A DNA stretch of 64,000 nt from a virus. Shown here piece by piece: positions 12,385-63,888 of this stretch. The notes below the pieces were generated by a model, which saw nothing but the letters and a program-made list of their open reading frames with translations, did not search any database and was not told where the DNA came from. The stretch lies in IMG/VR virus record IMGVR_UViG_3300045988_093487. The stretch is one strand, 5' to 3'. Every line of letters starts with the position of its first letter. The stretch's first letter is position 1. The translations under genes were made by a program, and so were the position numbers.

Positions 12385-12412
12385 TGCAGGGTGTATGCCC
12401 TGCTTTTATATG
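12385..12412 (+). terminator. rho-independent terminator
   Basis: gcagggtgtatgccctgc hairpin plus ttttat. Confidence 0.55.
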
Positions 12413-12506
12413 GGGTATTAGTCTAACTGGATAAAACATCACTCTCCTAAAGTGAATTTCTCCGTTCGAGTCGGGGATGCCCCACCAAAATTTTTCTTAA
12501 AACCAC

Positions 12507-12535
12507 TTGACAAATCGCAAAAAGTATGATAGAAT
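12507..12535 (+). promoter_or_regulatory. conserved phage promoter
   Basis: aaaaccacTTGACA, 17 bp spacer, TAGAAT, then tataGGTGTTCCAAGGGGAAC leader hairpin. Confidence 0.6.
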
Positions 12536-12573
12536 ATAGGTGTTCCAAGGGGAACAGAAAGAAGGTATATTAC

Positions 12574-12786
12574 ATGAAATGTGACGCTGTAAAAGTACAC
12601 GAGTCGATTCCTATGACACCGAAGCGTCTTTATGAGTGGGCTGTTGCAAACGGTGTTGAAGATTGTCAGATGTATTTTCCGGCAGACGAGTTTATGACCG
12701 ATGTTGACTTGACAATGGATTGTATGCACAAAGAATATCGTGGTTTTGGTAAGAACAAGGAAATGGTAGTTAATATCTGTGGGTAA
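12574..12786 (+). CDS. hypothetical protein
   Basis: ATG downstream of the promoter and leader; 70 aa. Confidence 0.4.
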   Translation: MKCDAVKVHESIPMTPKRLYEWAVANGVEDCQMYFPADEFMTDVDLTMDCMHKEYRGFGKNKEMVVNICG

Positions 12787-13087
12787 TTGTACGATGGTTT
12801 TTGTATATGAACTGAAGTACGCTGATAAACGCAAATTAGTTCCAGTCACAGAGAGTCCGAAGACGAGGACAATTGCTACGGTGATTAACAAAGTTACTGG
12901 AAACGATGTTAAGCGTTTGTATAATCGCCTGAAGCGAAGTGGCAATATGCCACAGATGGAGCATCTAAAAGATGGGAACTACCGTATTATGTATATGGCA
13001 CTGCCTAATGGGTTGAAGTTTGACCCATTCTATAAAGGTGGAACATATTACAGAGGAAGGAGCGTATTTGACCGTGATGACACTTGA
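12779..13087 (+). CDS. hypothetical protein
   Basis: 102 aa ORF overlapping its neighbours. Confidence 0.3.
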   Translation: MGNCTMVFVYELKYADKRKLVPVTESPKTRTIATVINKVTGNDVKRLYNRLKRSGNMPQMEHLKDGNYRIMYMALPNGLKFDPFYKGGTYYRGRSVFDRDDT

Positions 13088-13862
13088 TGATAGAATGAAA
13101 ACTTATTATGAGGGTGCATATCGTGTTTATCTGACGCGGCGTATGCCAGTCATTATCCGAATCGACTCTCGTGCTGGGCACACCTTCACAAAGAATCTGA
13201 AAAAGCCTTTTGATGCAGTTTTCACTGCAACTATGCAGGATACAATGAAGTATCTGTGTGAAAACATTCAGGGCTGTGTAATTGGTTATACGCAGTCTGA
13301 TGAAATTACTTTGTGCCTTGTTGATTATGACAAGCTGGAAACCGATGCTTGGTTTGGTTATAATCTAAACAAGCTGGTAAGCCTTAGTGCATCAATGGCT
13401 ACGTTGGCGTTTAATAAGTATTTTGAACGTAATGCCAATAGAACCCTCACCAAGATGGCATTGTCCTCTGGTGTGAATAAGTTTGAAATTGACGCTTACT
13501 CTGCTACATTGGCAAAGTGTAAAGAAAAGGGTTTGTGCTTCGATTCTCGCGCCTTTAATATCCCGAAGGAAGAGGCATGTAACTGTTTCTTATGGAGACA
13601 GCTTGACGCTTCTCGAAACAGTATTCAGGCGGTCGGTCAGGCAAACTTCTCGCATACTGTTCTGAATGGCAAGAGTACGTCTGAAATTCAGGATATGTTG
13701 ATGACCGAAAAAGGCATCAACTGGAACGACCTTGCGACTGAATTAAAGCGTGGCTCTTGCTGTGTACGAGATGGTAATGGCTGGTCTATTGACCGCGAGA
13801 TTCCTAAGTTTACCGGCGAAGGCCGTGACTATATTGATAAGCTGGTTTTTGTTGGAGAATAA
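13077..13862 (+). CDS. Thg1-like tRNA-His guanylyltransferase / 3'-5' polymerase
   Basis: IRIDSRAGHTFTK...KPFD...GYTQSDEITL matches the Thg1 catalytic core (RxDGRxFHxF, KPxD, YGQSDE); start codon uncertain (13020, 13077 or 13095). Confidence 0.65.
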   Translation: MTLDDRMKTYYEGAYRVYLTRRMPVIIRIDSRAGHTFTKNLKKPFDAVFTATMQDTMKYLCENIQGCVIGYTQSDEITLCLVDYDKLETDAWFGYNLNKLVSLSASMATLAFNKYFERNANRTLTKMALSSGVNKFEIDAYSATLAKCKEKGLCFDSRAFNIPKEEACNCFLWRQLDASRNSIQAVGQANFSHTVLNGKSTSEIQDMLMTEKGINWNDLATELKRGSCCVRDGNGWSIDREIPKFTGEGRDYIDKLVFVGE

Positions 13863-13863
13863 A

Positions 13864-14064
13864 ATGCCTAAATATAGTTTTGATTTTAGGTACGCATACG
13901 GAAGTTGGACATTATGTAATTTGCGTTATGAGCATTATGACATTGATGCCCCTTCTGAAAAGGAAGCATTTAAAATCGCAGAAAAACAGTTCAATGAAAC
14001 GCATAAATCTGCAATATGCGACCTCTATCGTGATAGTGATGGATGGCATAAACTTCTTTGGTGA
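13864..14064 (+). CDS. hypothetical protein
   Basis: 66 aa ORF starting ATGCCTAAATAT. Confidence 0.35.
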   Translation: MPKYSFDFRYAYGSWTLCNLRYEHYDIDAPSEKEAFKIAEKQFNETHKSAICDLYRDSDGWHKLLW

Positions 14065-14339
14065 GTATGAACATTAACATTCCGTTTTCTTGCGGCGATG
14101 TTGTGTACGCTGTAAGACCTAAAAATATGTATAACAAGGAAGCCTATATTTATAAAGGCATTGTTATTTATATTAAAGTCGAGGTTGACCGTGACAATAA
14201 AGCTAAAATTATGGCGCACGTCCGTGACCTCGATGAGACTTTAAGCGTACCTAACATCATCTATCAGAGCAGTGACAGTATCTACGCCACTCTGGATGAA
14301 GCTAGGTCAGCTAATCCAGATGTTCTGATAAAAATTTAA
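14058..14339 (+). CDS. hypothetical protein
   Basis: 93 aa ORF. Confidence 0.4.
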   Translation: MVSMNINIPFSCGDVVYAVRPKNMYNKEAYIYKGIVIYIKVEVDRDNKAKIMAHVRDLDETLSVPNIIYQSSDSIYATLDEARSANPDVLIKI

Positions 14340-14357
14340 AAAATTTCCCAAAACCCC

Positions 14358-14386
14358 TTGACAAATGATAAAAAATCTGGTATAAT
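14358..14386 (+). promoter_or_regulatory. conserved phage promoter driving the tRNA operon
   Basis: aaaaccccTTGACA, 17 bp spacer, TATAAT; leader hairpin GAGGAACgaaaGTTCCTC. Confidence 0.65.
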
Positions 14387-14421
14387 AAGGGTGTCAAGAG
14401 GAACGAAAGTTCCTCAAATAT

Positions 14422-14494
14422 ACGTCGGTAGTTTAACGGTAAAACAATGGCCTCCAAAGCCAGAAGATGATGGGTTCAAATCCCTCCCGGCGTG
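14422..14494 (+). tRNA. tRNA-Trp(CCA)
   Basis: acceptor acgtcgg/ccggcgt; anticodon loop ctCCAaa; GGGTTCAAATCCC T-arm (T-stem weakly paired); no encoded CCA. Confidence 0.55.
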
Positions 14495-14501
14495 TTTATA
14501 T

Positions 14502-14576
14502 GCGCTTATCGTTCAATGGATAGGACAAAACTCTTCTAAAGTTTTTATGTGGGTTCAATTCCTACTAGGCGTACCA
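14502..14576 (+). tRNA. tRNA-Arg(TCT)
   Basis: acceptor gcgctta/taggcgt; D-stem gttc/ggac; anticodon stem aaact/agttt with loop ctTCTaa; T-arm gtggg-ttcaatt-cctac; 3' CCA encoded. Confidence 0.7.
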
Positions 14577-14578
14577 CA

Positions 14579-14662
14579 GACGCATACAGCAATCCATAAA
14601 TTTTAATGGTTTAAAAAGAATGCTTAAAACAATCTTTCACGGTTCGATTCCGTTCTGCGTCT
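14579..14662 (+). tRNA. atypical tRNA-like gene (possible Leu-TAA, non-canonical D region)
   Basis: acceptor agacgca/tgcgtct (7/7) and cggTTCGATTccg T-arm, but about 14 extra nt around the D-arm; candidate anticodon arm gaatg-cttaaaa-caatc. Confidence 0.3.
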
Positions 14663-14739
14663 AATTTTTAGTTATTCTTCATCTTTATCTGAACTCGATA
14701 GACACGAACAGCAACACTTTCTTTGTTCGCGCCACTAAT

Positions 14740-14812
14740 TGCGAATATAGTTTAGATGGTTAGAACGCCACACCAAAATGTGGAGACGTGGGTTCGAGTC
14801 CCACTTATAGTT
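14740..14812 (+). tRNA. tRNA-like element / probable tRNA pseudogene
   Basis: canonical D-arm (tagtttagatggttagaac) and T-arm (gtgggTTCGAGTcccac) but a 6-nt anticodon loop (ccaaaa) and a poorly paired acceptor. Confidence 0.3.
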
Positions 14813-14823
14813 GTGTCTAATAT

Positions 14824-14896
14824 GCCCGGTTAGTCAAGTTGGCTAAGACGAGTGACTCTCAATCACTAGGCGGCAGTTCAATCCTGCCACCGGGTA
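14824..14896 (+). tRNA. tRNA-Glu(CTC)
   Basis: acceptor gcccggt/accgggt; anticodon stem agtga/tcact with loop ctCTCaa; T-arm ggcag-ttcaatc-ctgcc. Confidence 0.6.
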
Positions 14897-14901
14897 CTTT
14901 A

Positions 14902-14929
14902 TGGTCGAGTAGCTCAGTTGGTTAGAGCA
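14902..14929 (+). pseudogene. 5' fragment of a tRNA gene (acceptor + D-arm only)
   Basis: ggtcgagtagctcagttggttagagcag matches the 5' third of the tRNA-Lys and tRNA-Ile genes in this cluster, then diverges; lies next to the endonuclease gene. Confidence 0.45.
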
Positions 14930-14944
14930 GTAAATAAATGAGGT

Positions 14945-15703
14945 ATGAATATGGTAAACTCAAAGATGAAGGGTAATATTGCAGAATCGCGTGTTCTTTA
15001 TGAATTTGTTTAGAGGGGAATACCAGTTTCAATACCTTATGGCGATAATGAACGCTATGATATGATAGCGGAATTTAATGGGAAACTGAACAAGATACAG
15101 ATAAAGTTTTGTAATCAACAGATAGTTGATGGTTCGATAAGTTGCCCATGTTCTAATATAGTGAGTCCATTAACAAAAAGTAAGCACAGGGAATTATATG
15201 TTAATGACGTTGATTATATGGCATTTTACATATATGTATGGGATGTTGCTGTTATAATTCCAACAAGTTACATAGGGAATAGGATTCAGATAAAGATTAG
15301 AAAAGAACGCACAAAGAATAATCAAACTACAGCATCTACTTTTGTTGATGATTTTACATTTGATAAGATTGTTGGTACAGATATTCGTAATGTGATAGAA
15401 GAGCAACAAAATACCTACGAGAAGGCATATAATAGATGTATTGATTGTGGATGTATCATATCTGATAGAGCCGTAAGATGTTTAAAATGCAGAAACTTGA
15501 AGCAATACGAAGAAACAGCGAATCCGAATATGATAGATAGGGATACGCTCAAATCTATGATTAGAAATACACCGTTTAAGCATATTGCATCTATATGTGG
15601 AGTCTCGGATAACTGTATTAGAAATTGGTGTAAAAGGTATAATCTTCCATACCGCACATCTGATATTAAGAAATATACAGATGACGAGTGGAATGATATA
15701 TGA
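14945..15703 (+). CDS. Hjc/PD-(D/E)xK-type homing endonuclease with C-terminal Zn-finger/HTH, containing an in-frame TAG
   Basis: MNMVNSKMKGNIAESRVLYEFV-TAG-RGIPVSIPYGDNERYDMIAEFNGKLNKIQIKF matches Hjc-like nuclease motifs (GxxxE...D...K) across the TAG; CIDCGC...CLKCR zinc finger; the ORF track only shows the part from 15062. Confidence 0.5.
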
Positions 15704-15843
15704 TTTTGTTAGCTAATTACAAAAACAATATCCTACTGACATAATAATACCCATTTTTCGGTTTGGATAACAGCGCATAGGTATAAAAGTCTGTGATTAT
15801 TGGATAGGCTAACAATGACTGCTGGAAAGACAGCGTTTTATAT

Positions 15844-15920
15844 GCGGCAGTAGTTCAACTGGATAGAACAATCGGCTACGAACCGATAGGTTGCGAGTTC
15901 AAGTCTTGTCTGCCGTACCA
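15844..15920 (+). tRNA. tRNA-Arg(ACG)
   Basis: acceptor gcggcag/ctgccgt; anticodon stem atcgg/ccgat with loop ctACGaa; T-arm gcgag-ttcaagt-cttgt; CCA encoded. Confidence 0.7.
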
Positions 15921-16042
15921 GATAAATGAATCTTAAATTACGCTGGACAAAGGATAGCCTTTTATGGGAGACTGTTACGACAGTAACCCTGATTATCGGT
16001 GATGATGCTAACTCATGAGAGTGCGTAAGCCGACATTTATAT

Positions 16043-16118
16043 GTGCGTGTACTCGAATTGGCATAGAGAACGGTCTAAGAAGCCGTGTTTTGTGGGTTCA
16101 AGTCCCACCATGCACACC
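16043..16118 (+). tRNA. tRNA with anticodon AAG (Leu-like, short variable arm)
   Basis: acceptor gtgcgtg/catgcac; anticodon stem acggt/gccgt with loop ctAAGaa; T-arm gtggg-ttcaagt-cccac; A73; CCA encoded. Confidence 0.55.
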
Positions 16119-16122
16119 AGAA

Positions 16123-16243
16123 TACAGTATGGTTTCAATGGTAAAACATCACCCAAATAAGAATGTGTCTATGCAGACATAAGCCGCAACTGTTTTTCTT
16201 AAAAGCCAAGGTGAAGATGTCGGTTCGACCCCGACTGCTGTAT
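16123..16243 (+). tRNA. tRNA-like gene with about 50-nt insertion in the anticodon region
   Basis: perfect acceptor tacagta/tgctgta; D-arm gttt-caatggta-aaac; T-arm gtcgg-ttcgacc-ccgac; the region between D and T arms is about 55 nt too long and contains the hairpin tgtct-atgc-agaca. Confidence 0.35.
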
Positions 16244-16250
16244 TTATTAT

Positions 16251-16326
16251 GCGAGATTAACTCAACTGGAAGAGTGCCACTCTTACAAAGTGGAAGGTAC
16301 AAGTTCGAGTCTTGTATTTCGCACCA
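16251..16326 (+). tRNA. tRNA-Val(TAC)
   Basis: acceptor gcgagat/atttcgc; D-stem actc/gagt; anticodon stem ccact/agtgg with loop ctTACaa; T-arm acaag-ttcgagt-cttgt; CCA encoded. Confidence 0.7.
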
Positions 16327-16413
16327 TACGACAGTTTATAAGCAAAACAAGTTCTGTCGGTGATAAGACAAAAGACTTAATTGGCGGTTGAGTGACCTTA
16401 AACTCACCATTAT

Positions 16414-16529
16414 GGCTGTGTAGCTCAACTGGTAGAGCGCGTAAAACCTATCTATTTTAGATAGTAACAGCTACACATTTTTCCATTATAAGGACGAGGT
16501 TTATGGTTCGAGTCCATACGCAGCCACCA
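16414..16529 (+). tRNA. tRNA-like gene with about 40-nt insertion
   Basis: acceptor ggctgtg/cgcagcc; canonical D-arm tagctcaactggtagagc; T-arm tatgg-ttcgagt-ccata; CCA encoded; extra hairpin tatcta-tttt-tagata between the D and T arms. Confidence 0.35.
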
Positions 16530-16585
16530 GAAAATCTAAAAGAAGGGAAATGAATCCGATGCAGTAGATTGATAATAACAATCCA

Positions 16586-16822
16586 ATGGTTTTCTTTCAA
16601 ATGTTGGGTGAAGTTGCTGGTGACAACATCATGAGCAAGATTTCCCGACTAAAGATTGGTGAAGAAAACGGAATTGTTACTTTATATCTAAGAGATGAAC
16701 GCGAACCGTTCAACGATAGTGAACTTAGACAGCTAAAATACATCTTAGAAAGATGGTATGATATAATTTCTTTTAGGCGTGAAGATAGGCTTACTATGTT
16801 AGATATGAAGGTAAGAAAATGA
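16586..16822 (+). CDS. hypothetical protein inside the tRNA cluster
   Basis: 78 aa ORF; start uncertain. Confidence 0.3.
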   Translation: MVFFQMLGEVAGDNIMSKISRLKIGEENGIVTLYLRDEREPFNDSELRQLKYILERWYDIISFRREDRLTMLDMKVRK

Positions 16823-16920
16823 CCCTCCTTTATTTTTATATATAAAAAGACACATCCAGCAAACTTTTATTAAATTTTGAGTAGCCTTATGGTTCAATTT
16901 TTAATGTGTCTTTTAGATTT

Positions 16921-17008
16921 GCCAGTGTAGTTCAGTTGGTAGAACGCGGGTTTTGTAATCCCGATGCCGAAAGGGTTCTCGCAGGTTCAAGTCCTGTCAC
17001 TGGCTCCA
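16921..17008 (+). tRNA. tRNA with anticodon TGT (Thr-like) and a 17-nt variable region
   Basis: acceptor gccagtg/cactggc; D-arm gttc-agttggta-gaac; anticodon stem cggg(t)/(t)cccg with loop ttTGTaa; T-arm gcagg-ttcaagt-cctgt; CCA encoded. Confidence 0.5.
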
Positions 17009-17009
17009 T

Positions 17010-17085
17010 GCCACTTTAATTCAGTAGATAGAATGATGCGTTCGTACCGCATACGTCGTAGGTTTAATTCCTACAGGTGGCTCCA
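17010..17085 (+). tRNA. tRNA-Thr(CGT)
   Basis: acceptor gccactt/aggtggc; D-stem attc/gaat; anticodon stem atgcg/cgcat with loop ttCGTac; T-arm gtagg-tttaatt-cctac; CCA encoded. Confidence 0.7.
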
Positions 17086-17222
17086 ATCGCACCTATACCG
17101 TGGTAGAATAGGTATAGGCAAGTATTTTAACTACCGTGTCCATAGAGTTAATGGACTTGGGAGGTACTGACAAGACAGAAGAGCAAGTACCATGCACGTG
17201 GGCGGGTATTCGTGCTTTCATT

Positions 17223-17300
17223 TGCGTTCGTAGCTCAGTTGGTTAGAGCAATCGCCTTTTAAGCGATGGGTCGGGAGTTCGAGTCTCTTCGGGCGCACCA
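17223..17300 (+). tRNA. tRNA-Lys(TTT)
   Basis: acceptor gcgttcg/cgggcgc; D-arm tagctcagttggttagagc; anticodon stem atcgc/gcgat with loop ctTTTaa; GTTCGAGTC T-loop; CCA encoded. Confidence 0.7.
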
Positions 17301-17453
17301 CGCGGTAAGTAGTTTTCGAGTTGCGACTATTGTAGCTGGTATTCGTAAAAAATATAGTAAATGCGTGATATGACAGTATGCCGTGTTTGTGTTAAGGAAC
17401 AAGCACATTGCGGATAAACCGATGACTGCTGGAAAGACAGCAATTTATGTTTC

Positions 17454-17530
17454 CATAGCTCAGTTGGTTAGAGCGCAATCCTGATAAGATTGAGGTCGAA
17501 TGTTCAATTCATTCTGGAAACACCACTTAT
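17454..17530 (+). tRNA. tRNA-Ile(GAT)
   Basis: acceptor gtttcca/tggaaac; anticodon stem caatc/gattg with loop ctGATaa; T-arm gaatg-ttcaatt-cattc; CCA encoded. Confidence 0.7.
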
Positions 17531-17648
17531 TTTTGAAGTATTATAAAGATACTTTGAAATCTGATAGAAAATATCGTGTATTCACTAGGTATGAAACCGC
17601 TGGATGCAACGATACTCGCGTTATGCCTTTAGTAATCAAGGCATAATA

Positions 17649-17739
17649 TGTGGTAGTACCCAAGAGGTTGAAGGGGCTTGCTTGGAAAGCAAGTAGGCGG
17701 CGTATACCGTGCAGGGGTTCAAATCCCTTCTACCACGCC
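17649..17739 (+). tRNA. tRNA-Ser(GGA), type II
   Basis: perfect acceptor gtggtag/ctaccac; 3-bp D-stem; anticodon stem cttgc/gcaag with loop ttGGAaa; 19-nt variable arm; T-arm agggg-ttcaaat-ccctt; G73 and CCA encoded. Confidence 0.7.
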
Positions 17740-17866
17740 ACGACCGTAAAGATGAACAAAATAGAGCATACGGTGTTACAAAACCGTCTCGGAGTGATTG
17801 TACCACAGGGAGATTTAACGGAGTATATGCTCGATGTGTGGTTCGCAAAACCTAAATTGCAAATGT

Positions 17867-17941
17867 GCGTCATGCGCCAGACGGCTAGGCGAGAGACTGC
17901 AAATCTCTTTTAGATTGGTTCGACTCCAATATGACGCTCCA
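17867..17941 (+). tRNA. tRNA-Cys(GCA)
   Basis: acceptor gcgtcat/atgacgc; anticodon stem agaga/tctct with loop ctGCAaa; T-arm attgg-ttcgact-ccaat; CCA encoded. Confidence 0.7.
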
Positions 17942-21278: not shown

Positions 21279-21484
21279 TGAAAAGCGCTTACCTTTCTGG
21301 TAGACAGATTGCAAAGATTATCTTGATGGAAGCTGTGAATGGTAATATCAAGTATAGTCGTTACATTTACAGACTTAGCTCTTCTGCTGACGCAACACAG
21401 AAAGCAATGGAGGAACTTGCAACACACAAGTTTACCAATGCGGGTCAGTTGAAGAAATATCTTGAAACGTATGTTATTTTCTAA
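21278..21484 (+). CDS. hypothetical protein
   Basis: 68 aa ORF, start overlaps the upstream stop (ATAATG). Confidence 0.4.
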   Translation: MKSAYLSGRQIAKIILMEAVNGNIKYSRYIYRLSSSADATQKAMEELATHKFTNAGQLKKYLETYVIF

Positions 21485-21503
21485 TCTAAAGGAGATTTAA
21501 TAC

Positions 21504-21920: not shown

Positions 21921-21937
21921 TAACTAAAATATGATTT

Positions 21938-21978
21938 ATGGGGCGAGCGGTTGCGCTCCGCCCCATTTTTATTATAAG
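21938..21978 (+). terminator. rho-independent terminator
   Basis: ggggcgagcggttgcgctccgcccc hairpin plus atttttatt. Confidence 0.65.
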
Positions 21979-22001
21979 GGTGAATTAACAAATGGATATG
22001 A

Positions 22002-22783
22002 ATAAGAATGCGTAGGTCAACATATACTCCTTTTCAAAGTTAAAAAGTTTCTTCAATTGTAAGTATTACTATTATCTCCATTATTTTGATGATATGAAAA
22101 TGATTCCAGAATCACATGGTACAAGCGAATTTGGGTCATATATGCACAAGATATTAGAGATGTATGGAAAAGGCGAACTTGATATATATGATATGCTTTC
22201 GTATTATGAGAAGCATTATGCAGAGAATGTAACATCTACTTTTACTTTGCAGATGAAAAAGAACTTCTCAAGGGATATGGGGTATAAATATTACAAAGAT
22301 GGCTATGATTTTCTAAGTAATTTTACAGGTTTTGATTTTAAGATTTTAGAAACTGAAAAACATTTTGAACTACCTTTCAAAGATAAATTTAGATTGCAAG
22401 GCCAAATAGACGTTATTGCAGAAAACGATGATGGTTTACTGATTATTGATTATAAATCTAAAGGAAATTGGAAGAGCAAAGCAGAGCGTGTCGAATATGA
22501 AAAACAGTTGTATTCATACGCTTGGGCAATGAAGCAAATATATGGTGAATATCCGAAAAAGATGGCTTTCTTTATGTTTAGATTAAACAAATGGACATGG
22601 GTTGATTTCGACGAGAATAGGCTAAATGAAGTCTTAAATTGGATAGAATCAACTGTTGATGAGATAGAGAGCGAATTTGAGTTCAAGCCTATTACCCAAG
22701 AGAATAATGGGGTATTCGATTTCTATTGTAACAATTTCTGTGATTTTCGCCATCAATGTCCTTATGGACAATTAACTAATTAA
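22002..22783 (+). CDS. Cas4/RecB-like PD-(D/E)xK exonuclease with 4-Cys cluster; in-frame TAG at codon 8
   Basis: C-terminal CNNFCDFRHQCPY plus N-terminal SFFNCKYYYYLHY give the Cas4-type cysteine arrangement; QIDVI...DYKS nuclease core; the N-terminal Cys is only reachable from ATG 22002 through the TAG at 22023-22025, with no alternative start codon in between; the ORF track shows only the part from 22094. Confidence 0.6.
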
Positions 22784-22797
22784 GGAGAAAGATTTGC

Positions 22798-24786
22798 ATG
22801 AGTGAACTTCTGGATAAAATTATTGAAGCAAAAGGAGTTCTTGGTGATAGACAAGCAGAGATTATCGCAGAAGGCTATCCGCTTGAAGAGTGGAATCCAG
22901 AGAAAGGCTCTGCAAAATCTATCTTCAATGCTAACGACAATAATCCTTCAATGATGTGGATGAAAAAGGACTATTACTTTAAGGACTTCTCCACTGGTAA
23001 GGTATTCGGTATCTTGGACTATTATATGTACAAGTTTGGTGAACCTTACATGAAGGCAGTTAAGCGTTTGTTAGACGAGACAAAAGTAAAATACGACCCA
23101 TCTCTGTTTAGTTTTACAGCGCCAACTGAACAGAAGGATTATTTCAAGAACTTCAGATACCCTAAAGTTGAAGATGATATTTCCGGTGTTGCGTTGGAAT
23201 ATATGGCGAAGCGCGGTATTTCCGAGGAGACGTGTCGATATGTTGGTCTTGGTTCTGATATGCATGGGAACGTTGCATATCAGTTTAGGGATTTGACCGG
23301 ACGTGTTGTTACAGTTAAATATCGTCCTAGTCATGCAATTAAGAGTGGCGAACCGAAATATTTCTATCAGAAAAATGCTGATACTTGCCCTATTCTTTAT
23401 AACATTAACAAGATTGATGTAACACAGCCGCTTTTGTTGACAGAGGGTATGAACGATACTATGGCCTGTATTGAGGCTGGCTTCAAAAACGTCGTAAGTA
23501 TTCCATCTGGCGCGAATGATGATAACTGGATTAACTTTAACTATGAGTTCTTAGACCAGTTTGAAGATATTATCCTTTGGTTTGATAACGATGATGCTGG
23601 CGAAAGTGGTATGAAGAAAGCCATTCCTCGCCTTGGTGAATATCGTATTAAGATTGTCAAACCTACGGAGGATGATGAAGACGCGGTTTATAATTACTAT
23701 CACAGCTTTAATGAGAATGTAGATATTCGTAAAACCGATGCGAATAATGTTTTGTTGGCTTGTGGTAGCGCAAGAATCCTCGCGTTGATTAACTCTGCCG
23801 AAGAAATTCCTATGGAAAGCGTTATCGACCTGATGGACGTTGAGGAATTTGATATTGAACAGACTGAATATATTCCGAGCGGTATCAATTCGCTCGATAG
23901 ACAGATTTACGGTTTCATTGACGGAACATTGAACATCTGGACTGCCTACTCGGGTGTTGGCAAAACCACTATGATTTCGCAGTGTTGTGTTCTTGAAGCT
24001 ATTGACCGTGGCGAAAGCGTATTCTGGTTTAATGCCGAATCAACTACAAGCCAGATGTTAAACTGGGTTTTGGCGCAGGCGGCTGGCAGACAACATTCTG
24101 TCGAATATACTGGGGCAAATGGTTTTCAGTATTACAAACCTACTCCACAGGCAACACAGGCTATTAAGCAATACTACGCAAAGAAAATCTTTGTTTATGA
24201 CAACTTGCTTTTGTCGAATCCCGACATGGTGTTTGATAAGATGAAGTACATTTACAAAAGATGCGGTACAAAGGTATTTATCCTTGATAACTGGCTGTGC
24301 TTGAATTTCCGTGGTATTTCTGATACAGAAGTGACTGGCATTCAGGTTGACTTTATGAATAAATTGATTCATTTTACAAAACAGAATGGATTGGAAGTTC
24401 ACCTTGTTTGCCATCCTCGTAAGCAACAGGCTGGTATTCCTCTTTCCGAGTATGAGATTCTTGGCACATCTAACATTGTTAATATGGCTGATAGAATCTA
24501 CGGGCTTGAGAAGGTTTGGGATAATGATTTGAAGGCACAGGGATACGACAGACAGTTCACAGTTTTTAAGGATAGAACGCTTGGTATTCATGGTGAAAGA
24601 ATTGGTCTTAGATATGACCGCGTAACTCGCCGCCTGTATGGTGACGGTGATGATAGATTCAAGCAGTATTCTTGGGATAAAGGCTTGATTAGATACAACA
24701 GCCCGATTTTTGGTAAGAACGGCTTGCTTGTTGGTGATAGAGTTCTTGATTACGAACAAGCCGCCGCTAATAATACTCCGTATTGA
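22798..24786 (+). CDS. DNA primase-helicase (TOPRIM primase + DnaB-like helicase)
   Basis: TOPRIM LLLTEGMNDTMACIEAGFKNVVSIPSGANDD; Walker A GVGKTTMISQ; helicase motifs in the C-terminal half. Confidence 0.65.
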   Translation: MSELLDKIIEAKGVLGDRQAEIIAEGYPLEEWNPEKGSAKSIFNANDNNPSMMWMKKDYYFKDFSTGKVFGILDYYMYKFGEPYMKAVKRLLDETKVKYDPSLFSFTAPTEQKDYFKNFRYPKVEDDISGVALEYMAKRGISEETCRYVGLGSDMHGNVAYQFRDLTGRVVTVKYRPSHAIKSGEPKYFYQKNADTCPILYNINKIDVTQPLLLTEGMNDTMACIEAGFKNVVSIPSGANDDNWINFNYEFLDQFEDIILWFDNDDAGESGMKKAIPRLGEYRIKIVKPTEDDEDAVYNYYHSFNENVDIRKTDANNVLLACGSARILALINSAEEIPMESVIDLMDVEEFDIEQTEYIPSGINSLDRQIYGFIDGTLNIWTAYSGVGKTTMISQCCVLEAIDRGESVFWFNAESTTSQMLNWVLAQAAGRQHSVEYTGANGFQYYKPTPQATQAIKQYYAKKIFVYDNLLLSNPDMVFDKMKYIYKRCGTKVFILDNWLCLNFRGISDTEVTGIQVDFMNKLIHFTKQNGLEVHLVCHPRKQQAGIPLSEYEILGTSNIVNMADRIYGLEKVWDNDLKAQGYDRQFTVFKDRTLGIHGERIGLRYDRVTRRLYGDGDDRFKQYSWDKGLIRYNSPIFGKNGLLVGDRVLDYEQAAANNTPY

Positions 24787-24798
24787 TGAGGTGATGTA

Positions 24799-55510: not shown

Positions 55511-56140
55511 TTATCTAACAAACATTGCTTTCCAAGTATTCATACCTACAATTCCATCGGCAGTTAGATTATGTGCTCTCTGGAATTTTTTTACCTCATC
55601 TTCAGTGTTCTTTCCAAATTGACCATCAATAGGTATACCAAGTTTCTTTTGAACGAATTTTACAGCACTTGCTTTACCAACATTCGTTCCGCGTTTGATA
55701 ATTGGCATTAGGTCAACTCTATAATATTCGTATACGCCAGCTCTTGCACAAAGCCAAAATGTTTCTCTTGGTCTGGTATCAACATGGATAAAGTTCGTGT
55801 TACCGTAGTAGTACACTCCAACACCATTCGTGATAGTTTGTGCGTAATATGCCAATTCAACAGCGGAAACACCAGCAATCTGGATATCTGCCGCCATACC
55901 TTTTACATGATAGGAACCAGCAGAACCACCGACCCTGCGGTTATGCTCTGGGGTACGATATGCAGAATTTATTACAACCGGCTTACCAAAATAGTCACGG
56001 ATTTTTTGTAGAACTTCAACGAGAGCTGTATCAATAAGAACGGAGTCAGAACCATCCTTACAGGCGAACTCTTTTACAGTAAAATTTGTAGATAATTTTG
56101 TATTACCGTGTTCCTTTAGACTGTATGTTTTAACAGCCAT
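55511..56140 (-). CDS. endolysin: M15 peptidase (VanY-like) with C-terminal peptidoglycan-binding domain
   Basis: SAYRTPEHNRRVGGSAGSYHVKGMAADIQI (M15 zinc peptidase); C-terminal FQRAHNLTADGIVGMNTWKAM (PG_binding_1-like). Confidence 0.7.
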   Translation of the reverse strand: MAVKTYSLKEHGNTKLSTNFTVKEFACKDGSDSVLIDTALVEVLQKIRDYFGKPVVINSAYRTPEHNRRVGGSAGSYHVKGMAADIQIAGVSAVELAYYAQTITNGVGVYYYGNTNFIHVDTRPRETFWLCARAGVYEYYRVDLMPIIKRGTNVGKASAVKFVQKKLGIPIDGQFGKNTEDEVKKFQRAHNLTADGIVGMNTWKAMFVR

Positions 56141-56583
56141 TATACCATCCCTTTCTTAGATAAATAATATTTAGGTTTTTCTTCGTGGAACAAGAAGTAT
56201 CTTAAATAATCGTCAACGATAATAGCAACGATGCATAAGAAAAACCACAGAATAGTAAACGGTAAGCAAATCTAACCAAGAATATTAAATGGTAGATTTG
56301 AATAATCCCAAATGTGAAGACCCAGAAATAGATTTAGTATAATTCCTGCGATAAACTCACAACACGTTACAACAAGTGCACCAATTATAGACTGTTTCCA
56401 AATTTCCATTTTCCAAGGTAGATAATTATTTAATCCACCAATGACAACAAAACAAAAACCTCCAAGAACGCCCATTGTCCAATGAGTATGTCCGCGACAA
56501 AGCATCTCTATTCCGCAATATGCAAAACCACCAATTAAAAACAAGATTATAATTTTAAGTGATTCTTTTGCAAGATTTCTCAT
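56141..56583 (-). CDS. membrane protein with in-frame TAG; readthrough form ends in a TAATG overlap with the endolysin start
   Basis: 103 codons, TAG at 56272-56274, then 43 more in-frame codons including a TM helix (ICLPFTILWFFLCIVAIIV) ending at TAA 56140-56142, which overlaps the endolysin ATG. Confidence 0.55.
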
Positions 56584-59104: not shown

Positions 59105-62100
59105 TTAACCAACTCTTTTCCAGATGTGCACATAGTAGGCGGCGGGCTGCACGGTATAGCTGCGACCGTAGATTGAGTTCGAGCGGGAAGCATCAAAGTA
59201 AACATCATACGTCGAACCTGACGTACCACTGTAGCCACCCCAAGAAGTATTGATTTCTACGAATTTTAAAGCTCCCGATGATTTCAAAGACGCTTTTGAA
59301 CCACGGAATGGGGAGGACTCTGCGGTTGCTTCTATTAAGCTGCCCGTGATGTTCGGCAGTCCGGCCTCCACCGTGCTTCCCGCTGTGTAGCCTGTGCCAG
59401 CACCCATCAGCACGCGGTTAAATGCAATCTCCTGCCATGTACCGCCGAACAGTGCGGCGGGACTGGTAGTGCTGACTGTTTGAAAAATACTGCCCACCGG
59501 GTAGGCAGACAGGCCGCTGTCCGCAGAAAGTGTTCCGTCCGCATCGACCGTCAGACCGCTGCCCACCTTCACGCCGCCCAGCGTGGTGGCGGTGGCAGCA
59601 GGGAGGGTGTATTCCTGAGCATCAGCACTCAATACACCTTTATTAGAAACTTTTAGCCCCTCTCCTACAATGATGCCACCTAGCTCTGTCGTCGTTGCAG
59701 GGGGCAGCATTGCTCCACCAATAGGGGTTTGACCAAAACTCATAAGGATATCTTCTCGGATAATGTAATAAAAAGCTTTAATAGATTCCGTTGGGATGTT
59801 ACGAGCACGGATTCTCAAATAATTAGGTAATGATTCTGTTGAAGTAAAATAACATTTTTTAGCGACTACATTACTATCTGGTGCAATGACAAGTGCAACA
59901 CAATCACTTCCTGTAATTCCTGTAGCTACAATGTCAATATAATTCGGATATGCAGAGTTACTATCTTGGTTCCATCCAGTTGTGGGAATCGTAATAGATA
60001 CAAGATTTATTTTTTCTGCTGCCTCATAACCAAGTGCTCCGTCAACGTTGTCTTTTATTAAACTAATCAAGCCTTTATTACCAACTGTAATATTGTCTCC
60101 AATTTGTACAATACCGGCATTAGTTCTCGTAGCATAATTAGTGTCTGTAACAACGCTTGTTTTAGAATAAGGAGTGATAGCTTGGTCAACAGAGGGGGCA
60201 TTTGCGGAGTATTTTAATACATATCCCCAATTGTCTTTTTTAGCTATAGATACATTGATAATAGAATTAAAGAATGTAGAGTCCGTGTTTATCCATAGTT
60301 CTGCATTACTCTGACCGTTTCCACCCGATGTTGGGATTAAATAGAAAAACTCTTTTTTTGTTGAATTGTTTTCGATATCTACATCGGAAGATTTTAGCTT
60401 ATCATCATACATAATATAAGAGAAAATGTAGGCTGTAGACAAATCGTTACTATTTGTTTGTGCTAAGTCATGGATGAATAATGTAATATTCTTACTATAA
60501 GCGACAGAGTTATTTTCTGTTGAAACAATTGTAGGACAGTTAATCTCAATTTTTATTAAATCACCGTCTGATGTGTTAGAAATGTTTCCTACATGAAACC
60601 ATGTTTGTCCGGTTACAGTAGACGCAGGGATGGTTTCTGTTAATATATATCCTTTTGGAGCAGCGCCGTCAATTGTGCTCGTCTCATTATTGCCCTTTGT
60701 GATGATGATTTTATCCCCTGTTGGACGCAAATCTTTGATGTACGTCGCATCTATTTGTTGACCAATAGAGTCATTTGTTGCGCTGTCTGCGCTAGTCGCA
60801 GTGTCAGCGTTACCAGTTAGATTACCAACAAACTTAGCATCACCGCTCATAGTAATGTCGCCAGTCATTGTACCGCCACTAAGTTTCAACGTGCCAACTA
60901 ATGCGTTTGCTACATTAGTCTCGCTTGTTTTAGCATTAGTTTCACTAATCTTCGCTTTATCTTCAGATGCCTTTGCTGCGTTTTGACTTACAAGAGCAGC
61001 GGCGGCAGATGCTGCGGCATCATTAGCAGATTGCTGTGAATTATCCGCATAGCTACTTGCGTTCTGTTCTGAAGCAGCAGCGTTAGTCTCGCTTGTTTTA
61101 GCATTAGTTTCACTAATCTTCGCTTTATCTTCAGATGCCTTTGCTGCGTTTTGACTTACAAGAGCAGCGGCGGCAGATGCTGCGGCATCATTAGCAGATT
61201 GCTGTGAATTATCCGCATAGCTACTTGCGTTCTGTTCTGAAGCAGCAGCGTTAGTCTCGCTTGTTTTAGCATTAGTTTCACTAATCTTCGCTTTATCTTC
61301 AGATGCCTTTGCTGCGTTTTGACTTGCAAGAGCAGCGGCGGCAGATGCAGCGGCATCATCAGCAGATTGCTGTGAATTATCCGCATAGCTACTTGCGTTC
61401 TGTTCTGAAGCAGTTGCGTTTATTTCTGATTGCTTTGCCGCCTTTTCTGATGCCAATGCTTTGGTTTCACTGGTTTTAGCAGCATTTTGAGAATTTAAAG
61501 AGGCTTGTGCCGAATTTGCAGAATCACTTGCAGAACTAGCCGAATCATCAGCGCTTGTCTTAGATGCGTTTTCTGAAGCTTTCGCGTTTTGTTCCGAAAT
61601 CTTAGCATTAGCTTCTGATGTAGCAGATGCAGTCTATGAAGCCTTTGCTTTATTTGCACTATCCGCTGCATTTGTCTCCGATGTCGCGGCATTCTGCTCA
61701 GACTGTTTAGCATTAGCTTCAGAAGTAGCGGCGGCTTGTGCAGATTTTTGAGCAGCAATCTGATAATTATGTGCATTTATTTCAGATTGTCTAATACTCT
61801 CAGCGGAAGCAGCGGCGGCATCTTTATATGCGTTTGCGTTAGCTTCAGAAGCGGCTGCATTACTAGCTGATACGGCTGCTGCATTTTTATAACTTTCTGC
61901 ATTGACTTCAGAAGCCTTTGCGTTGTCTTCAGACTTCTTAGCGGCCTCGGCAGCATTCATAGCGTCATCGTGGTAGCTACCAATTATTTTTTGGAATGTT
62001 GCAATAGCATCTGTCCAAACATCTGGATTTTTTGATGCAGAACCAACATCGAGCAGTCCTTTTTCGATATTCAAAACCTATGGTTTTGTATGTAAAATAT

Positions 62101-62461
62101 ACTAACCTTCTTCTGCCGCATCAGTAATGCGCCCATCATATATAGAAATATCATAAGTCAAAGTACCACTCGCGGCAGTTGCCTTTTGACTTAAATACCA
62201 AGGGAATATAATATATCTTTTTTCTCCATCAGTCTTAACTTCGCGAGTGTCGGAAAAGAAAGTATCAAATTGACCAAGAGCATTAACATACCGAATAGCT
62301 AAGATTTTATCTGTAATATCAACATCATCAATAACAGCCGGAATCTTAAACTTCAGAATACGCGAGTCGTTATCGTCAACAACAGCGATATTTTCCGTTG
62401 CGCATGGTACAATATCTCTATTTCTAATTTCAAAAATATATGAACTCAAATATTTCACCAT
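59105..62461 (-). CDS. tail fibre protein (about 1119 codons) containing three in-frame TAG codons
   Basis: ORFs 62102-62461, 61634-62074 and 59105-61456 are all in one frame, separated only by TAG codons at 62102-62104, 62078-62080 and 61634-61636; the Ala/Ser-rich repeat sequence continues unbroken across the 61634 TAG; no ATG or usable RBS exists for the internal segments; start ATG 62461 has RBS gaagga. Confidence 0.65.
60915..61420 (-). repeat. three near-identical tandem 168-bp (56-aa) repeats inside the tail fibre gene
   Basis: period 168 bp from ttagtctcgcttg at 60915, 61083 and 61251; encodes ASEQNASSYADNSQQSANDAAASAAAALVSQNAAKASEDKAKISETNAKTSETNAA three times. Confidence 0.8.
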
Positions 62462-62671: not shown

Positions 62672-62837
62672 AGTCCTCCATTCCTACTTCATCAGAAGCA
62701 ACTGCGTCAGTTGGCAAATCAATATCAGACATCACGGCAATATACTCAATCAGTGATTGCTGATTGCTAATCTGTGCATTACGATATTCTGCCATTTTCT
62801 CCTCATGAGGAGACATGATTGCCTTTTCAAATACCAT
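62672..62837 (-). CDS. hypothetical small protein
   Basis: 55 aa ORF between the reverse transcriptase and the XkdX-like gene. Confidence 0.3.
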
Positions 62838-62841
62838 AATT

Positions 62842-63888
62842 CTACCTCCATAATTCGTAATAGAATTGATTCATCCTTTGTATTAGCTTATATGAATTAC
62901 CATGTTCTGCATGAGCAACCCAACAGCTATAACATTGGTCTATCTTTTCTTTAGTTCTACGACCTTTTACAACAAGTTTAACCATTTTGCGCAATTTACG
63001 CTTTTCGTTCTTAACATTATCACCAAGAATTGACATAACAACTTTGCCAGTTTCAGTAAGCCTGAACTTAAATCCCAAGAAAGGAATACCCTGACCAACT
63101 CTATACAGTTTAGTTTTCTTAGGATGTAGTTCAAGACCAATTTTAGCTAATTCTTCTTGAATCTCGTGCATACACTTAATCAAGTAATTTCTGTCGTGAT
63201 GAATAAGAACAAAATCATCCATATATCTGATATAATACTTAATGTGCATACGTTCTTTAATCTTATGGTCAAGTTTATCCAGAACAGAAATGCCAGCAAT
63301 CTGAACGACTTGGCTACCGGGATTATACCCGGTATCACCGAGATATTGTTCATTTAATATTCTACAGACTCTATCTGCATATTCTGCTGGTAATTTCTCT
63401 CTAAACAAGGCATTTGTTGTATCGTGCCGCATATTATCATAATAGTGTTTAATGTCGCATTGAAGAACCCAAGCATCAAGACCGTTCTTTCTATAGCATC
63501 TTTGCAGATGACATTTTAAACGACCTCTAGCAAAATCAGTTCCTTTTCCTTTTTGACAAGCACAATTATCATAAATAAAACTTCGAGTCATTAACGGATA
63601 CACTATATTGTCATTAAGGCTACGTTGATACACTCTGTCTCTAAAAGCTATGCTTACAGCAATTCTTTCTTTTGGATGAGTGATATGAACCGTCTTAGTC
63701 GGGCGAGGTTGGTATGTTCCGTCTGCTAGTTGCTTTTCCAATTTAAGAACCTGTTCAATTCCATGAATATAGAAATTAGCAACAGATTCTTTCCAGCTAA
63801 CATTTTTCTTACACTTATATAAAGAATCAAGTAGGTGCTCGAAGTCTAGGACATTTACTACTTGATTCGATTCCTAATTGTTACTCAT
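62842..63888 (-). CDS. reverse transcriptase, DGR-type, with in-frame TAG at codon 5
   Basis: GTYQP, RIAVSIAFRDRVYQRSL, QCDIKHYYDNM (motif A), GYNPGSQVVQIAGI (SQ variant of the QGxxxSP motif, the DGR hallmark), YIRYMDDFVLI (YxDD); the conserved N-terminus LDFEHLLDSLYKCKK... is reachable only from ATG 63888 through the TAG at 63874-63876; the ORF track starts at an internal TTG; the gene ends with TAG at 62842-62844 and a TGA 5 codons later. Confidence 0.65.

What the first reader, a model, noticed from the sequence alone, without database searches (positions are those of the whole stretch)
22002..22783. Cas4-like nuclease needs TAG readthrough to include its N-terminal cysteine motif
- The ORF-track start (22094) lacks the N-terminal cysteine of the Cas4/RecB 4-Cys cluster.
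- Upstream in the same frame lies SFSKLKSFFNCKYYYYLHY, a Cas4-like Y..C...Y motif. It is reachable only from ATG 22002 through a TAG at 22023-22025 (MDMNKNA-TAG-VNIYSF...).
- No ATG, GTG or TTG lies between the TAG and the cysteine codon.
Basis: partly seen in the sequence, partly recalled or inferred. Interest (0 to 1): 0.7.

Follow-up and report, generated by a model that had tools for sequence, protein, structure and literature searches.

The report
Gut phage nuclease gene using TAG=glutamine
The in-frame TAG near the start of this phage nuclease gene is one of about ten TAG codons in the window that are read as glutamine, because this human-gut phage uses the already known alternative "code 15"; the gene is intact, not truncated.

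Summary
The ATG is at 21992 and the TAG at 22013-22015; the Cys codon is at 22058 and the code-11 ORF runs 22094-22783.

The 26 codons between the TAG and ATG 22094 are translated:
- Pfam PDDEXK_1 and PHROG 69 align from residue 3-5 of the post-TAG protein.
- The N-terminal Cys is invariant in 19 homologues.
- Against a 97%-identical relative, this segment shows 8 synonymous changes and 1 non-synonymous change.

This is not gene-specific readthrough. The phage, a roughly 116 kb human-gut lineage, reads TAG as Gln throughout its genome:
- The tail fibre has three in-frame TAGs, two of which are CAG in sister strains.
- A lysis-cassette membrane protein and a PDDEXK_5 endonuclease have Pfam domains that span a TAG.
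- In relatives, TAG encodes the nuclease's invariant QLY-motif Gln.
- No ORF in the window clearly ends at TAG.

The nuclease is a RecB/AddB/AdnA/Cas4-like iron-staple nuclease in a replication module, not a CRISPR Cas4.

One gap remains: no CUA-anticodon tRNA was found in the window or in about 100 kb of related genome.

Interest is low to moderate.

The parts
21939..21970 (+). Terminator-like GC-rich hairpin plus T-run between the SSB gene (21504-21920) and the nuclease gene
   Evidence: Found. The same hairpin precedes the orthologous gene in L001, L023, L026 and L024.
21976..21983 (+). Shine-Dalgarno-like AAGGGTGA, 8 nt upstream of ATG 21992
   Evidence: Read directly from the sequence. 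Its function is inferred.
21992..22783 (+). Full-length nuclease CDS under code 15: 263 codons plus TAA, MDMNKNA-Q(TAG)-VNIYSFSKLKSFFNCKYYYY...GQLTN
22013..22015 (+). In-frame TAG, codon 8, decoded as Gln
   Evidence: Located. The TAG is kept at the same aligned site in L001/L002, L045-L049, L023, L026 and L009. True Gln codons occupy the site in L024/L025 (CAA) and L050 (CAG).
22016..22093 (+). 26-codon segment missing from the code-11 ORF. It carries the YSFSKLK helix and the N-terminal Cys (TGT 22058-22060), the predicted first Fe-S ligand.
   Evidence: The Cys is invariant in 19 homologues. The segment shows 8 synonymous and 1 non-synonymous difference against L001. AF2 pLDDT is about 90 for residues 1-20, which fold as a strand and two helices. 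The Cys aligns with the Cys in AdnA's ...LTDCPLRW....
22094..22783 (+). The truncated ORF seen under the standard code (229 aa). It holds the catalytic and C-terminal Cys residues.
   Evidence: Residues in post-TAG numbering with window coordinates: D132 (22409), D145 (22448), K147 (22454), Q164 (22505), Y168 (22517), C238 (22727), C242 (22739), C248 (22757).
59105..62461 (-). Tail-fibre gene with three in-frame TAGs at 62102-62104, 62078-62080 and 61634-61636 (codons 120, 128 and 276)
   Evidence: Codons 120 and 276 are CAG in sister strains L012 and L014. Codon 128 is TAG in all of them.
56140..56583 (-). CmpB-like membrane protein in the lysis cassette, with an in-frame TAG at 56272-56274
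   Evidence: Pfam PF06541 aligns residues 37-122 across the TAG at residue 104. The TAG is conserved in L012-L015, where the gene is called as only 103 aa.
14945..15703 (+). PDDEXK_5 (homing-type) endonuclease with an in-frame TAG at 15011-15013. It is inserted after the 5' 30 nt of a tRNA-Phe gene (14903-14932).
   Evidence: Pfam PF11645 aligns residues 5-139 to profile positions 2-137 of 138, across the TAG at residue 23. The tRNA-Phe remnant was found.
62827..63888 (-). Reverse transcriptase (RVT_1) with a probable TAG at codon 5 (63874-63876) and a TAG four codons before the TAA (62842-62844)
   Evidence: The N-terminal TAG is probable rather than proven, because a TTG start at 63741 would still include the RVT_1 domain.
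12412..17941 (+). tRNA array of 13 canonical tRNAs plus several atypical tRNA-like genes. None has a CUA anticodon.

Best explanation
The window comes from a roughly 116 kb tailed phage of the human gut whose genes are written in genetic code 15, where TAG encodes glutamine and TAA and TGA are the only stops.

The nuclease gene starts at ATG 21992, behind its own ribosome-binding site. Codon 8 (TAG, 22013-22015) is read as Gln. The product is a 263-residue PD-(D/E)XK nuclease of the RecB family, of the 'iron-staple' type found in AddB, AdnA/B, Dna2, Exo5 and Cas4. In that type, one N-terminal Cys (22058) and a C-terminal Cys triad (22727, 22739, 22757) are expected to hold an Fe-S cluster that clamps the two ends of the domain around the D...DxK active site.

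The gene lies in a replication and recombination module: AAA_24 ATPase, SSB, nuclease, primase-helicase, Pol III alpha. The nuclease most likely processes DNA ends for recombination-dependent replication.

Shown here:
- The segment after the TAG is translated and is needed for the conserved domain.
- TAG corresponds to Gln.
- TAG is used in-frame in several other genes.

Inferred:
- Fe-S binding and the recombination role.
- That the early TAG makes full-length protein depend on the phage's (unidentified) TAG-decoding activity. In a standard-code host this would keep the nuclease off until that activity is present.
For: 1. The extension belongs to the domain.
- PF12705 covers the whole profile from post-TAG residue 5.
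- The PHROG 69 'exonuclease' score is 97.2 bits with the extension and 72.3 bits without it.
- C15 is invariant in 19 homologues down to 32% identity, together with D132, D145, K147, Q164, Y168, C242 and C248.
- The AF2 model has pLDDT 91.9 and a well-ordered N-terminus.
- Foldseek's top PDB hits are AdnA, ACE1 (Cas4 family), AddAB, Dna2, Cas4 SSO0001 and Exo5.

2. The extension is translated. Against L001/L002, the TAG-to-ATG22094 segment has 8 synonymous and 1 non-synonymous difference. The rest of the gene has 38 and 7.

3. TAG corresponds to Gln.
- The site is CAA in L024 and CAG in L050.
- In the P0009 lineage the invariant Gln of the QLY motif is a TAG (A1).
- Tail-fibre TAG codons 120 and 276 are CAG in strains L012 and L014.
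- A TAG in the large structural ORF of L013 aligns with Gln in all six relatives.

4. The recoding is genome-wide.
- Pfam domains span TAGs in the CmpB-like protein and the PDDEXK_5 endonuclease.
- Of about 100 ORFs, stops are TAA 60, TGA 33 and TAG 7. None of the seven TAGs is an unambiguous terminator.
- Structural ORFs just beyond the window carry 2-6 TAGs, and relatives carry up to 12.

5. The database's own gene caller translated relatives P0002, P0004 and P0009 with TAG read as Q.

6. The phenomenon is established in the literature.
- Borges et al. (bioRxiv 10.1101/2021.08.26.457843) describe TAG-to-Gln recoding in gut phages, with variable recoding of replication genes and suppressor tRNAs detected in only 40% of TAG-recoded genomes.
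- A metaproteomic study supports code 15 experimentally (PMC9523058).
- The phAss-1 group is another described example (PMC10607447).
Against: - No tRNA with a CUA anticodon was found. ARAGORN at default and relaxed settings, Rfam, and a direct anticodon-loop pattern scan were run on the window. They were also run on 10 kb beyond each window end in the same species, and on about 100 kb of the closest IMG/VR relative, including its second tRNA array.
- No release factor or GlnRS appeared among the ORFs that were annotated.
- TAG makes up only about 2% of Gln codons in the window, so recoding here is sparse.
- There are no protein-level data.
- Fe-S binding is predicted only. The C-terminal spacing is CX3CX5C, not the canonical CX2CX5C. 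Some homologues lack the first Cys of the triad.
Confidence: 0.9

Rival explanations
1. Gene-specific programmed, leaky readthrough. TAG is a normal stop in this phage. Only a small fraction of ribosomes pass it in this gene, using a near-cognate host tRNA-Gln, and so make a little full-length nuclease.
For: No dedicated CUA suppressor tRNA was found. In the window's clade this gene has only one TAG. TAG use in the window is sparse.
Against: - The same phage has ORFs with 3 TAGs (tail fibre) and 6 TAGs (L013 4195-6117). Relatives have up to 12. Leaky readthrough would give essentially no product from such genes.
- TAG and CAG interchange freely between strains.
- TAG encodes an invariant catalytic-motif Gln in the P0009 lineage.
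- No ORF clearly terminates at TAG.
Confidence: 0.04
2. The TAG is a true stop. The gene is either a pseudogene or is expressed as the 229-aa protein from ATG 22094, which works without the N-terminal Cys.
For: A 229-aa ORF exists under the standard code, and gene callers report it (P0001). One distant relative (L004) has a TAA right after its start codon.
Against: - The N-terminal Cys and the YSFSK helix are invariant in all full-length homologues.
- The skipped segment shows 8 synonymous and 1 non-synonymous change.
- No SD-like motif is apparent by eye directly before 22094.
- The other 'truncated' database homologues turned out to be missed TTG starts or TAG splits.
Confidence: 0.03
3. Translation starts after the TAG at a non-canonical start codon, for example ATA at 22022, so no TAG decoding is needed.
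For: In L009 and L026 the codon after the TAG is ATT, a rare bacterial start.
Against: - The codons after the TAG are not conserved as any near-cognate start: GTC AAC ATA in the window, GTA AAT ACC in L001, TTA AAT ACT in L023.
- The SD-like motif is correctly spaced for ATG 21992.
- This cannot explain the internal TAGs in the tail fibre, the CmpB-like protein, the endonuclease, or the relatives' nuclease genes.
Confidence: 0.01
4. TAG is reassigned, but to an amino acid other than Gln, for example pyrrolysine, Tyr, Trp or Glu.
For: No suppressor tRNA was found whose identity elements could be read. A few TAGs in divergent structural proteins align with N, K or E.
Against: - Every TAG-to-sense exchange between close strains is to CAG.
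- The orthologous site is CAA or CAG in outgroups.
- TAG replaces the invariant Gln of the QhxxY motif.
- Gln is the most frequent residue opposite TAG.
- No Pyl genes appeared among the ORFs that were annotated.
Confidence: 0.02

Closest known systems
[quoted passage not shown]
   Same: - In-frame TAGs sit at Gln positions.
- They are concentrated in tail and lysis genes and in a homing endonuclease, and are variable in replication genes.
- TAG and CAG exchange between close relatives.
- The source is the human gut, and the genome carries a large tRNA complement.
   Different: - There is no close sequence relative in GenBank phages. The best match is about 37% amino-acid identity to the unannotated MT835481.
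- TAG density in this window is very low, about 2% of Gln codons.
- No CUA suppressor tRNA was detected, whereas phAss-1 has three. Borges et al. also failed to find one in about 60% of TAG-recoded genomes.
Iron-sulfur 'iron-staple' RecB-family nucleases: AddB, AdnA/AdnB, Dna2, Exo5, Cas4 (SSO0001, PDB 4ic1) and ACE1
   Same: - The fold matches (Foldseek probability 1.0, TM about 0.65 to AdnA and ACE1).
- The D...DxK and QhxxY motifs are present.
- There is one N-terminal Cys and a C-terminal Cys cluster.
   Different: - It is a stand-alone 263-aa protein with no helicase domain.
- The C-terminal spacing is CX3CX5C.
- Sequence similarity to solved structures is insignificant (E about 0.1).
- It is not CRISPR-associated.
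Phage stand-alone PD-(D/E)XK exonucleases (PHROG 69 and 1218) found beside an SSB and a Sak4-like or AAA_24 ATPase in recombination modules
   Same: - The family matches (E 2e-27).
- The gene order AAA_24, SSB, nuclease, primase-helicase is conserved in all relatives.
   Different: The only difference is the recoded N-terminal codon.

Membership tests
RecB-family PD-(D/E)XK nuclease with Fe-S 'iron staple' (AddB/AdnAB/Dna2/Cas4 type) | Catalytic D ... (D/E)xK motif | tested here: met
   D132, D145 and K147 (post-TAG numbering) are invariant in 19 homologues. PF12705 matches at E 8e-26 over the full profile.
RecB-family PD-(D/E)XK nuclease with Fe-S 'iron staple' (AddB/AdnAB/Dna2/Cas4 type) | QhxxY motif after the catalytic Lys | tested here: met
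   Q164, L165, Y166 and Y168 are invariant.
RecB-family PD-(D/E)XK nuclease with Fe-S 'iron staple' (AddB/AdnAB/Dna2/Cas4 type) | Four Cys: one N-terminal to the nuclease core and three C-terminal | tested here: met
   C15 is invariant, and C238, C242 and C248 are present. C15 aligns with the Cys in AdnA's ...LTDCPLRW.... The spacing is CX3CX5C rather than CX2CX5C. C238 is replaced by Lys in P0006-8 and P0015.
RecB-family PD-(D/E)XK nuclease with Fe-S 'iron staple' (AddB/AdnAB/Dna2/Cas4 type) | Fold similar to solved members | tested here: met
   The AF2 model has pLDDT 91.9. The top Foldseek PDB hits are AdnA, ACE1, AddAB, Dna2, SSO0001 and Exo5, at E 7e-8 to 1e-3.
RecB-family PD-(D/E)XK nuclease with Fe-S 'iron staple' (AddB/AdnAB/Dna2/Cas4 type) | Bound Fe-S cluster and nuclease activity | not testable with these tools
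   This needs purified protein, UV-visible or EPR spectroscopy, and activity assays.
Cas4 in the strict sense (CRISPR-associated, Pfam PF01930) | Match to Cas_Cas4 above the curated threshold | tested here: not met
   The score is 20.1 bits against a cut-off of 22.7, and only residues 128-228 match.
Cas4 in the strict sense (CRISPR-associated, Pfam PF01930) | Genomic association with cas1/cas2 or a CRISPR array | tested here: not met
   In the window and in all relatives, the neighbours are AAA_24, SSB, primase-helicase and Pol III alpha. No cas family appeared among the annotated neighbours. No dedicated CRISPR-repeat scan was run.
Genetic code 15 (TAG-to-Gln) phage | In-frame TAGs inside conserved domains of several unrelated genes | tested here: met
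   The genes are the nuclease, the PDDEXK_5 endonuclease and the CmpB-like protein, the tail fibre with three TAGs, and structural ORFs in L013.
Genetic code 15 (TAG-to-Gln) phage | TAG positions correspond to Gln in homologues | tested here: met
   Tail-fibre TAGs exchange with CAG between strains. The nuclease site is CAA or CAG in outgroups. TAG sits at the invariant QLY Gln. A TAG aligns with Gln in six of six relatives at one site of the large structural ORF.
Genetic code 15 (TAG-to-Gln) phage | TAG not used as a terminator | tested here: met
   Seven of about 100 code-11 ORFs end in TAG. Three of these are proven internal TAGs and one is spurious, overlapping tRNAs. The other three are followed in frame by 1, 4 or 60 codons before a TAA or TGA.
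Genetic code 15 (TAG-to-Gln) phage | Phage-encoded suppressor tRNA with CUA anticodon | tested here: not met
   None was found in the window. None was found in flanks from the same species, L013-L018. None was found in about 100 kb of IMGVR_UViG_3300045988_088999, including its second tRNA array. About 32 kb of the window's own lineage was not seen. The literature reports detection in only 40% of such phages.
Genetic code 15 (TAG-to-Gln) phage | Code-change accessory genes (RF2, GlnRS) | tested here: inconclusive
   None appeared among the ORFs annotated with Pfam. Many small ORFs and the unseen part of the genome were not scanned.
Genetic code 15 (TAG-to-Gln) phage | Gln at TAG shown at the protein level | not testable with these tools
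   This needs metaproteomics, as was done for crAss-like phages (PMC9523058).

The most novel reading that the evidence does not exclude
The TAG at codon 4-8 of this nuclease may be a selected translational gate, not a neutral synonymous Gln codon. It is the only TAG in the gene in the window's clade. It is retained in every lineage at least 70% identical, while other TAG positions come and go. It lies before the first Fe-S ligand, so a standard-code host cell could make only a heptapeptide.

The phage family also shows no canonical CUA suppressor tRNA. It does carry conserved tRNA-like genes with extended anticodon arms and a large RNA-repair and tRNA-processing gene set. The decoding agent might therefore be unconventional.
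Probability: 0.12. Interest if true: 0.6.

Novelty: new member of a known kind. Interest (0 to 1): 0.3.

Why it matters
Practical value: the whole window, and its roughly 116 kb phage lineage, which is common in human-gut assemblies, must be annotated with translation table 15. Under the standard code the nuclease loses its Fe-S ligand. The tail fibre is split into three ORFs, the lysis-cassette membrane protein is cut at residue 103, and an endonuclease loses its N-terminal helix.

Biological value: this is another independent lineage showing sparse, apparently early-stage TAG-to-Gln recoding that reaches into a replication-module gene. It adds a case to the roughly 60% of TAG-recoded phages in which no suppressor tRNA can be found. 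How the code switch is carried out in those phages remains an open question.

Tried and rejected
- Megablast of 20000-30000 against GenBank phages found nothing. tblastn gave only distant, unannotated gut phages.
- A codon-usage 'bridging' test for stops flanked by coding sequence did not discriminate. Adjacent same-frame genes separated by TAA score just as well.
- The possible 60-codon extension of the SLT gene past TAG 18787 could not be confirmed. Homologues do not align convincingly there, and L003's SLT also ends at TAG.
- I first read the 'Q' in P0002-P0004 as independent evidence that TAG corresponds to Gln. Their DNA showed those Qs are themselves TAGs translated by the database's gene caller. 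I replaced that evidence with true CAA and CAG codons in outgroups and with strain polymorphisms.
- The truncated calls for P0009 and P0014 are missed TTG starts, not TAGs.
- The suppressor-tRNA hunt found no CUA anticodon. It used ARAGORN at default, relaxed and intron settings, Rfam at gathering and E-value thresholds, and a stem-loop pattern scan. It also included walking an IMG/VR relative in four steps.
- A relaxed ARAGORN call of 'tRNA-Stop(tta)' at 14716-14812 is spurious. Its 'anticodon' lies in what Rfam aligns as the D-loop of a degenerate tRNA.
- PDB sequence searches with profiles A1 and A2 gave only insignificant hits, so a fold search was used instead.

Full report
OBSERVATION

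In the frame of the 229-aa ORF 22094-22783, the sequence reads ATG(21992) GAT ATG AAT AAG AAT GCG TAG(22013-22015) GTC AAC ATA TAC TCC TTT ... TGT(22058) ... ATG(22094). This translates as MDMNKNA*VNIYSFSKLKSFFNCKYYYYLHYFDD-MKMIPESHG.... None of the 26 codons between the TAG and 22094 is ATG, GTG or TTG. The next upstream in-frame stop is TAA at 21986. An SD-like AAGGGTGA (21976-21983) lies 8 nt before ATG 21992. A terminator-like hairpin (21939-21970) separates the gene from the upstream SSB gene.

IS THE SKIPPED SEGMENT CODING?

Yes, on four lines of evidence.
- Pfam PF12705 (PDDEXK_1) aligns residues 5-249 of the post-TAG protein to profile positions 3-247 of 247, at E 8e-26.
- The PHROG 69 'exonuclease' score is 97 bits with the extension and 72 bits without it.
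- In an alignment of 19 full-length homologues, down to 32% identity, the N-terminal Cys (C15 in post-TAG numbering) is invariant. So are S5, S7 and Y23, the catalytic D132/D145/K147, Q164/Y168, and C242/C248.
- Against a 97%-identical relative (L001/L002), the 26-codon segment carries 8 synonymous and 1 non-synonymous difference. The rest of the gene carries 38 and 7. This is direct evidence of purifying selection in this frame.

An AlphaFold2 model has pLDDT 91.9 and an ordered N-terminus. Its best PDB matches are the Fe-S-containing RecB-family nuclease domains of AdnA, ACE1 (a Cas4-family protein), AddAB, Dna2, Cas4 SSO0001 and Exo5. A marginal profile alignment to AdnA places the family's Cys column on the Cys of AdnA's ...LTDCPLRW....

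The family does require this Cys, and the 229-aa ORF is an annotation artefact.

WHAT IS THE TAG?

It is not a private feature of this gene.

The tail-fibre gene on the minus strand (62461 to 59105) has three in-frame TAGs, and its amino-acid repeats continue across them. In sister strains, codons 120 and 276 are CAG while codon 128 stays TAG.

A CmpB-like membrane protein next to the endolysin (56583 to 56140) and a PDDEXK_5 endonuclease (14945-15703) each have a Pfam domain that spans a TAG.

Just beyond the window end, the same species has a 1391-codon ORF with 2 TAGs and a 641-codon ORF with 6 TAGs. One of these TAGs aligns with Gln in six of six relatives.

In relatives, the nuclease gene itself carries up to four TAGs. 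One of them encodes the invariant Gln of the QLY motif.

The N-terminal TAG is conserved at the same aligned codon in the window, L001/L002, five IMG/VR contigs (L045-L049), L023, L026 and L009. The codon is CAA in L024/L025 and CAG in L050.

Of about 100 standard-code ORFs in the window, 60 end in TAA, 33 in TGA and 7 in TAG. None of the seven is an unambiguous terminator.

One caution: the 'Q' shown at this site in database proteins P0002 and P0004 is itself a TAG, translated by the database's gene caller. I therefore did not count those as evidence.

CONCLUSION ON MECHANISM

The phage uses genetic code 15, in which TAG encodes Gln. The nuclease is a normal, intact 263-aa protein that starts at 21992.

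This phenomenon is well documented in gut phages. Borges et al. report TAG-to-Gln recoding in many clades. It is concentrated in structural and lysis genes and in a homing endonuclease, and is variable in replication genes. They detected suppressor tRNAs in only 40% of TAG-recoded genomes. Metaproteomics has validated code 15 in crAss-like phages (PMC9523058). The phAss-1 group is a further example.

The distribution of TAGs in this window matches that picture: tail fibre, lysis-cassette protein, endonuclease, and one replication-module nuclease.

WHAT IS NOT EXPLAINED

I found no CUA-anticodon tRNA in any of these places:
- The window's array of 13 tRNAs.
- The 10 kb beyond either window end in the same species.
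- About 100 kb of the closest IMG/VR relative, including a second tRNA array: Met, Asn, Gln-UUG, Pro, Asp, Ala, Leu, Ser, Ser.

No RF2 or GlnRS appeared among the annotated ORFs. ORFs with 6-12 TAGs need efficient decoding, so the decoding agent is unidentified.

CONTEXT AND FAMILY PLACEMENT

The source is human gut. The contigs are about 113-116 kb, and identical proteins occur in many ENA, Logan and IMG/VR assemblies. There is no close relative among annotated GenBank phages.

The gene order AAA_24 ATPase, SSB, nuclease, primase-helicase, split Pol III alpha is conserved. This points to a recombination and replication role.

The protein works like an AddB/Cas4-type iron-staple nuclease. It is not a Cas4 family member in the strict sense. 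The PF01930 match is below threshold, and there is no cas context.

NOVELTY AND SCORE

What it reveals is a known alternative code in a so far undescribed lineage: a new member of a known kind.

Two points of residual interest remain. One is the strict conservation of a single, very early TAG in an 'early-module' nuclease, which could be a translational gate. The other is the absence of a recognisable suppressor tRNA.

Interest is 0.3.

Noticed in passing
window 16122-16247 and 16414-16529 (+): Two conserved tRNA-like genes carry insertions of about 50 nt in the anticodon arm. Neither has an ordinary 7-nt anticodon loop. In the first, relatives show compensatory changes in the acceptor, anticodon and T stems, so the RNA is under selection. 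The insertion folds as an extended arm. It may be Y-RNA-like (YrlA-like) or an intron-containing tRNA.
   Followed up: partly
L063 5566-5700 (IMG/VR relative); weak hit in window 14845-14961: A YrlA-like (bacterial Y RNA) element with a circularly closed tRNA-like module sits between tRNA-Gln and tRNA-Pro in the relative's second tRNA array (Rfam 41.7 bits, below the gathering score). The phage also encodes a DUF2828+VWA protein (window 9259-10773). From memory only, and unverified, this may be Ro60-like.
   Followed up: partly
window 1-12400 and 49346-50812; L016 and L018 flanks: There is a large RNA-repair and tRNA-processing gene set. It includes RNA ligase, RlaP, an AAA_33/KTI12 kinase-like protein, PhoH, a Thg1-like protein, a CCA-adding enzyme (PolyA_pol), PTH2 and a YqeY-domain protein.
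   Followed up: no
window 14903-14932 and 14945-15703 (+): The first 30 nt of a tRNA-Phe(GAA) gene, which is intact in relatives L045 and L048, are followed directly by the TAG-containing PDDEXK_5 endonuclease gene. The 3' half of the tRNA is missing. The endonuclease insertion appears to have destroyed the tRNA gene.
   Followed up: partly
window 62827-63888 (-): A reverse transcriptase (RVT_1) lies immediately upstream of the XkdX-like and tail-fibre genes. It resembles a diversity-generating retroelement. No template or variable repeats were searched for.
   Followed up: no
window 24799-26457, 26762-27799, 27800-29344 (+): DNA polymerase III alpha is split into two ORFs by an ORF with a homing-endonuclease-associated (HNH_repeat) domain. 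That ORF may itself begin MAKARYTKV-TAG-FYNE (TAG at 26759). Relatives carry inteins or LAGLIDADG genes at this locus.
   Followed up: partly
L010/L011 about 9920-10000; L004 about 2190: Two oddities occur in distant orthologues of the nuclease. In L010/L011 there is no canonical start before the Cys motif. There is an out-of-frame ATG followed by an A7 run, which suggests a possible frameshift or slippage. L004 has TTG-TAA where sister contigs L003 and L005 have TTG-GAA.
   Followed up: no
window 16921-17008 and 14741-14812 (+): There is an 88-nt tRNA(UGU) with a long variable arm, which is unusual for a Thr tRNA. There is also a degenerate tRNA (Rfam 43.6 bits) with a 6-nt anticodon loop and a mismatched acceptor stem.
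   Followed up: partly
window 18259-18972, 39608-40105 (+): Two further ORFs 'end' at a TAG that is followed in frame by more codons before a TAA or TGA. The SLT transglycosylase has 60 more codons, and the gene at 39608 has 1 more. The SLT extension could not be confirmed by homology.
   Followed up: partly
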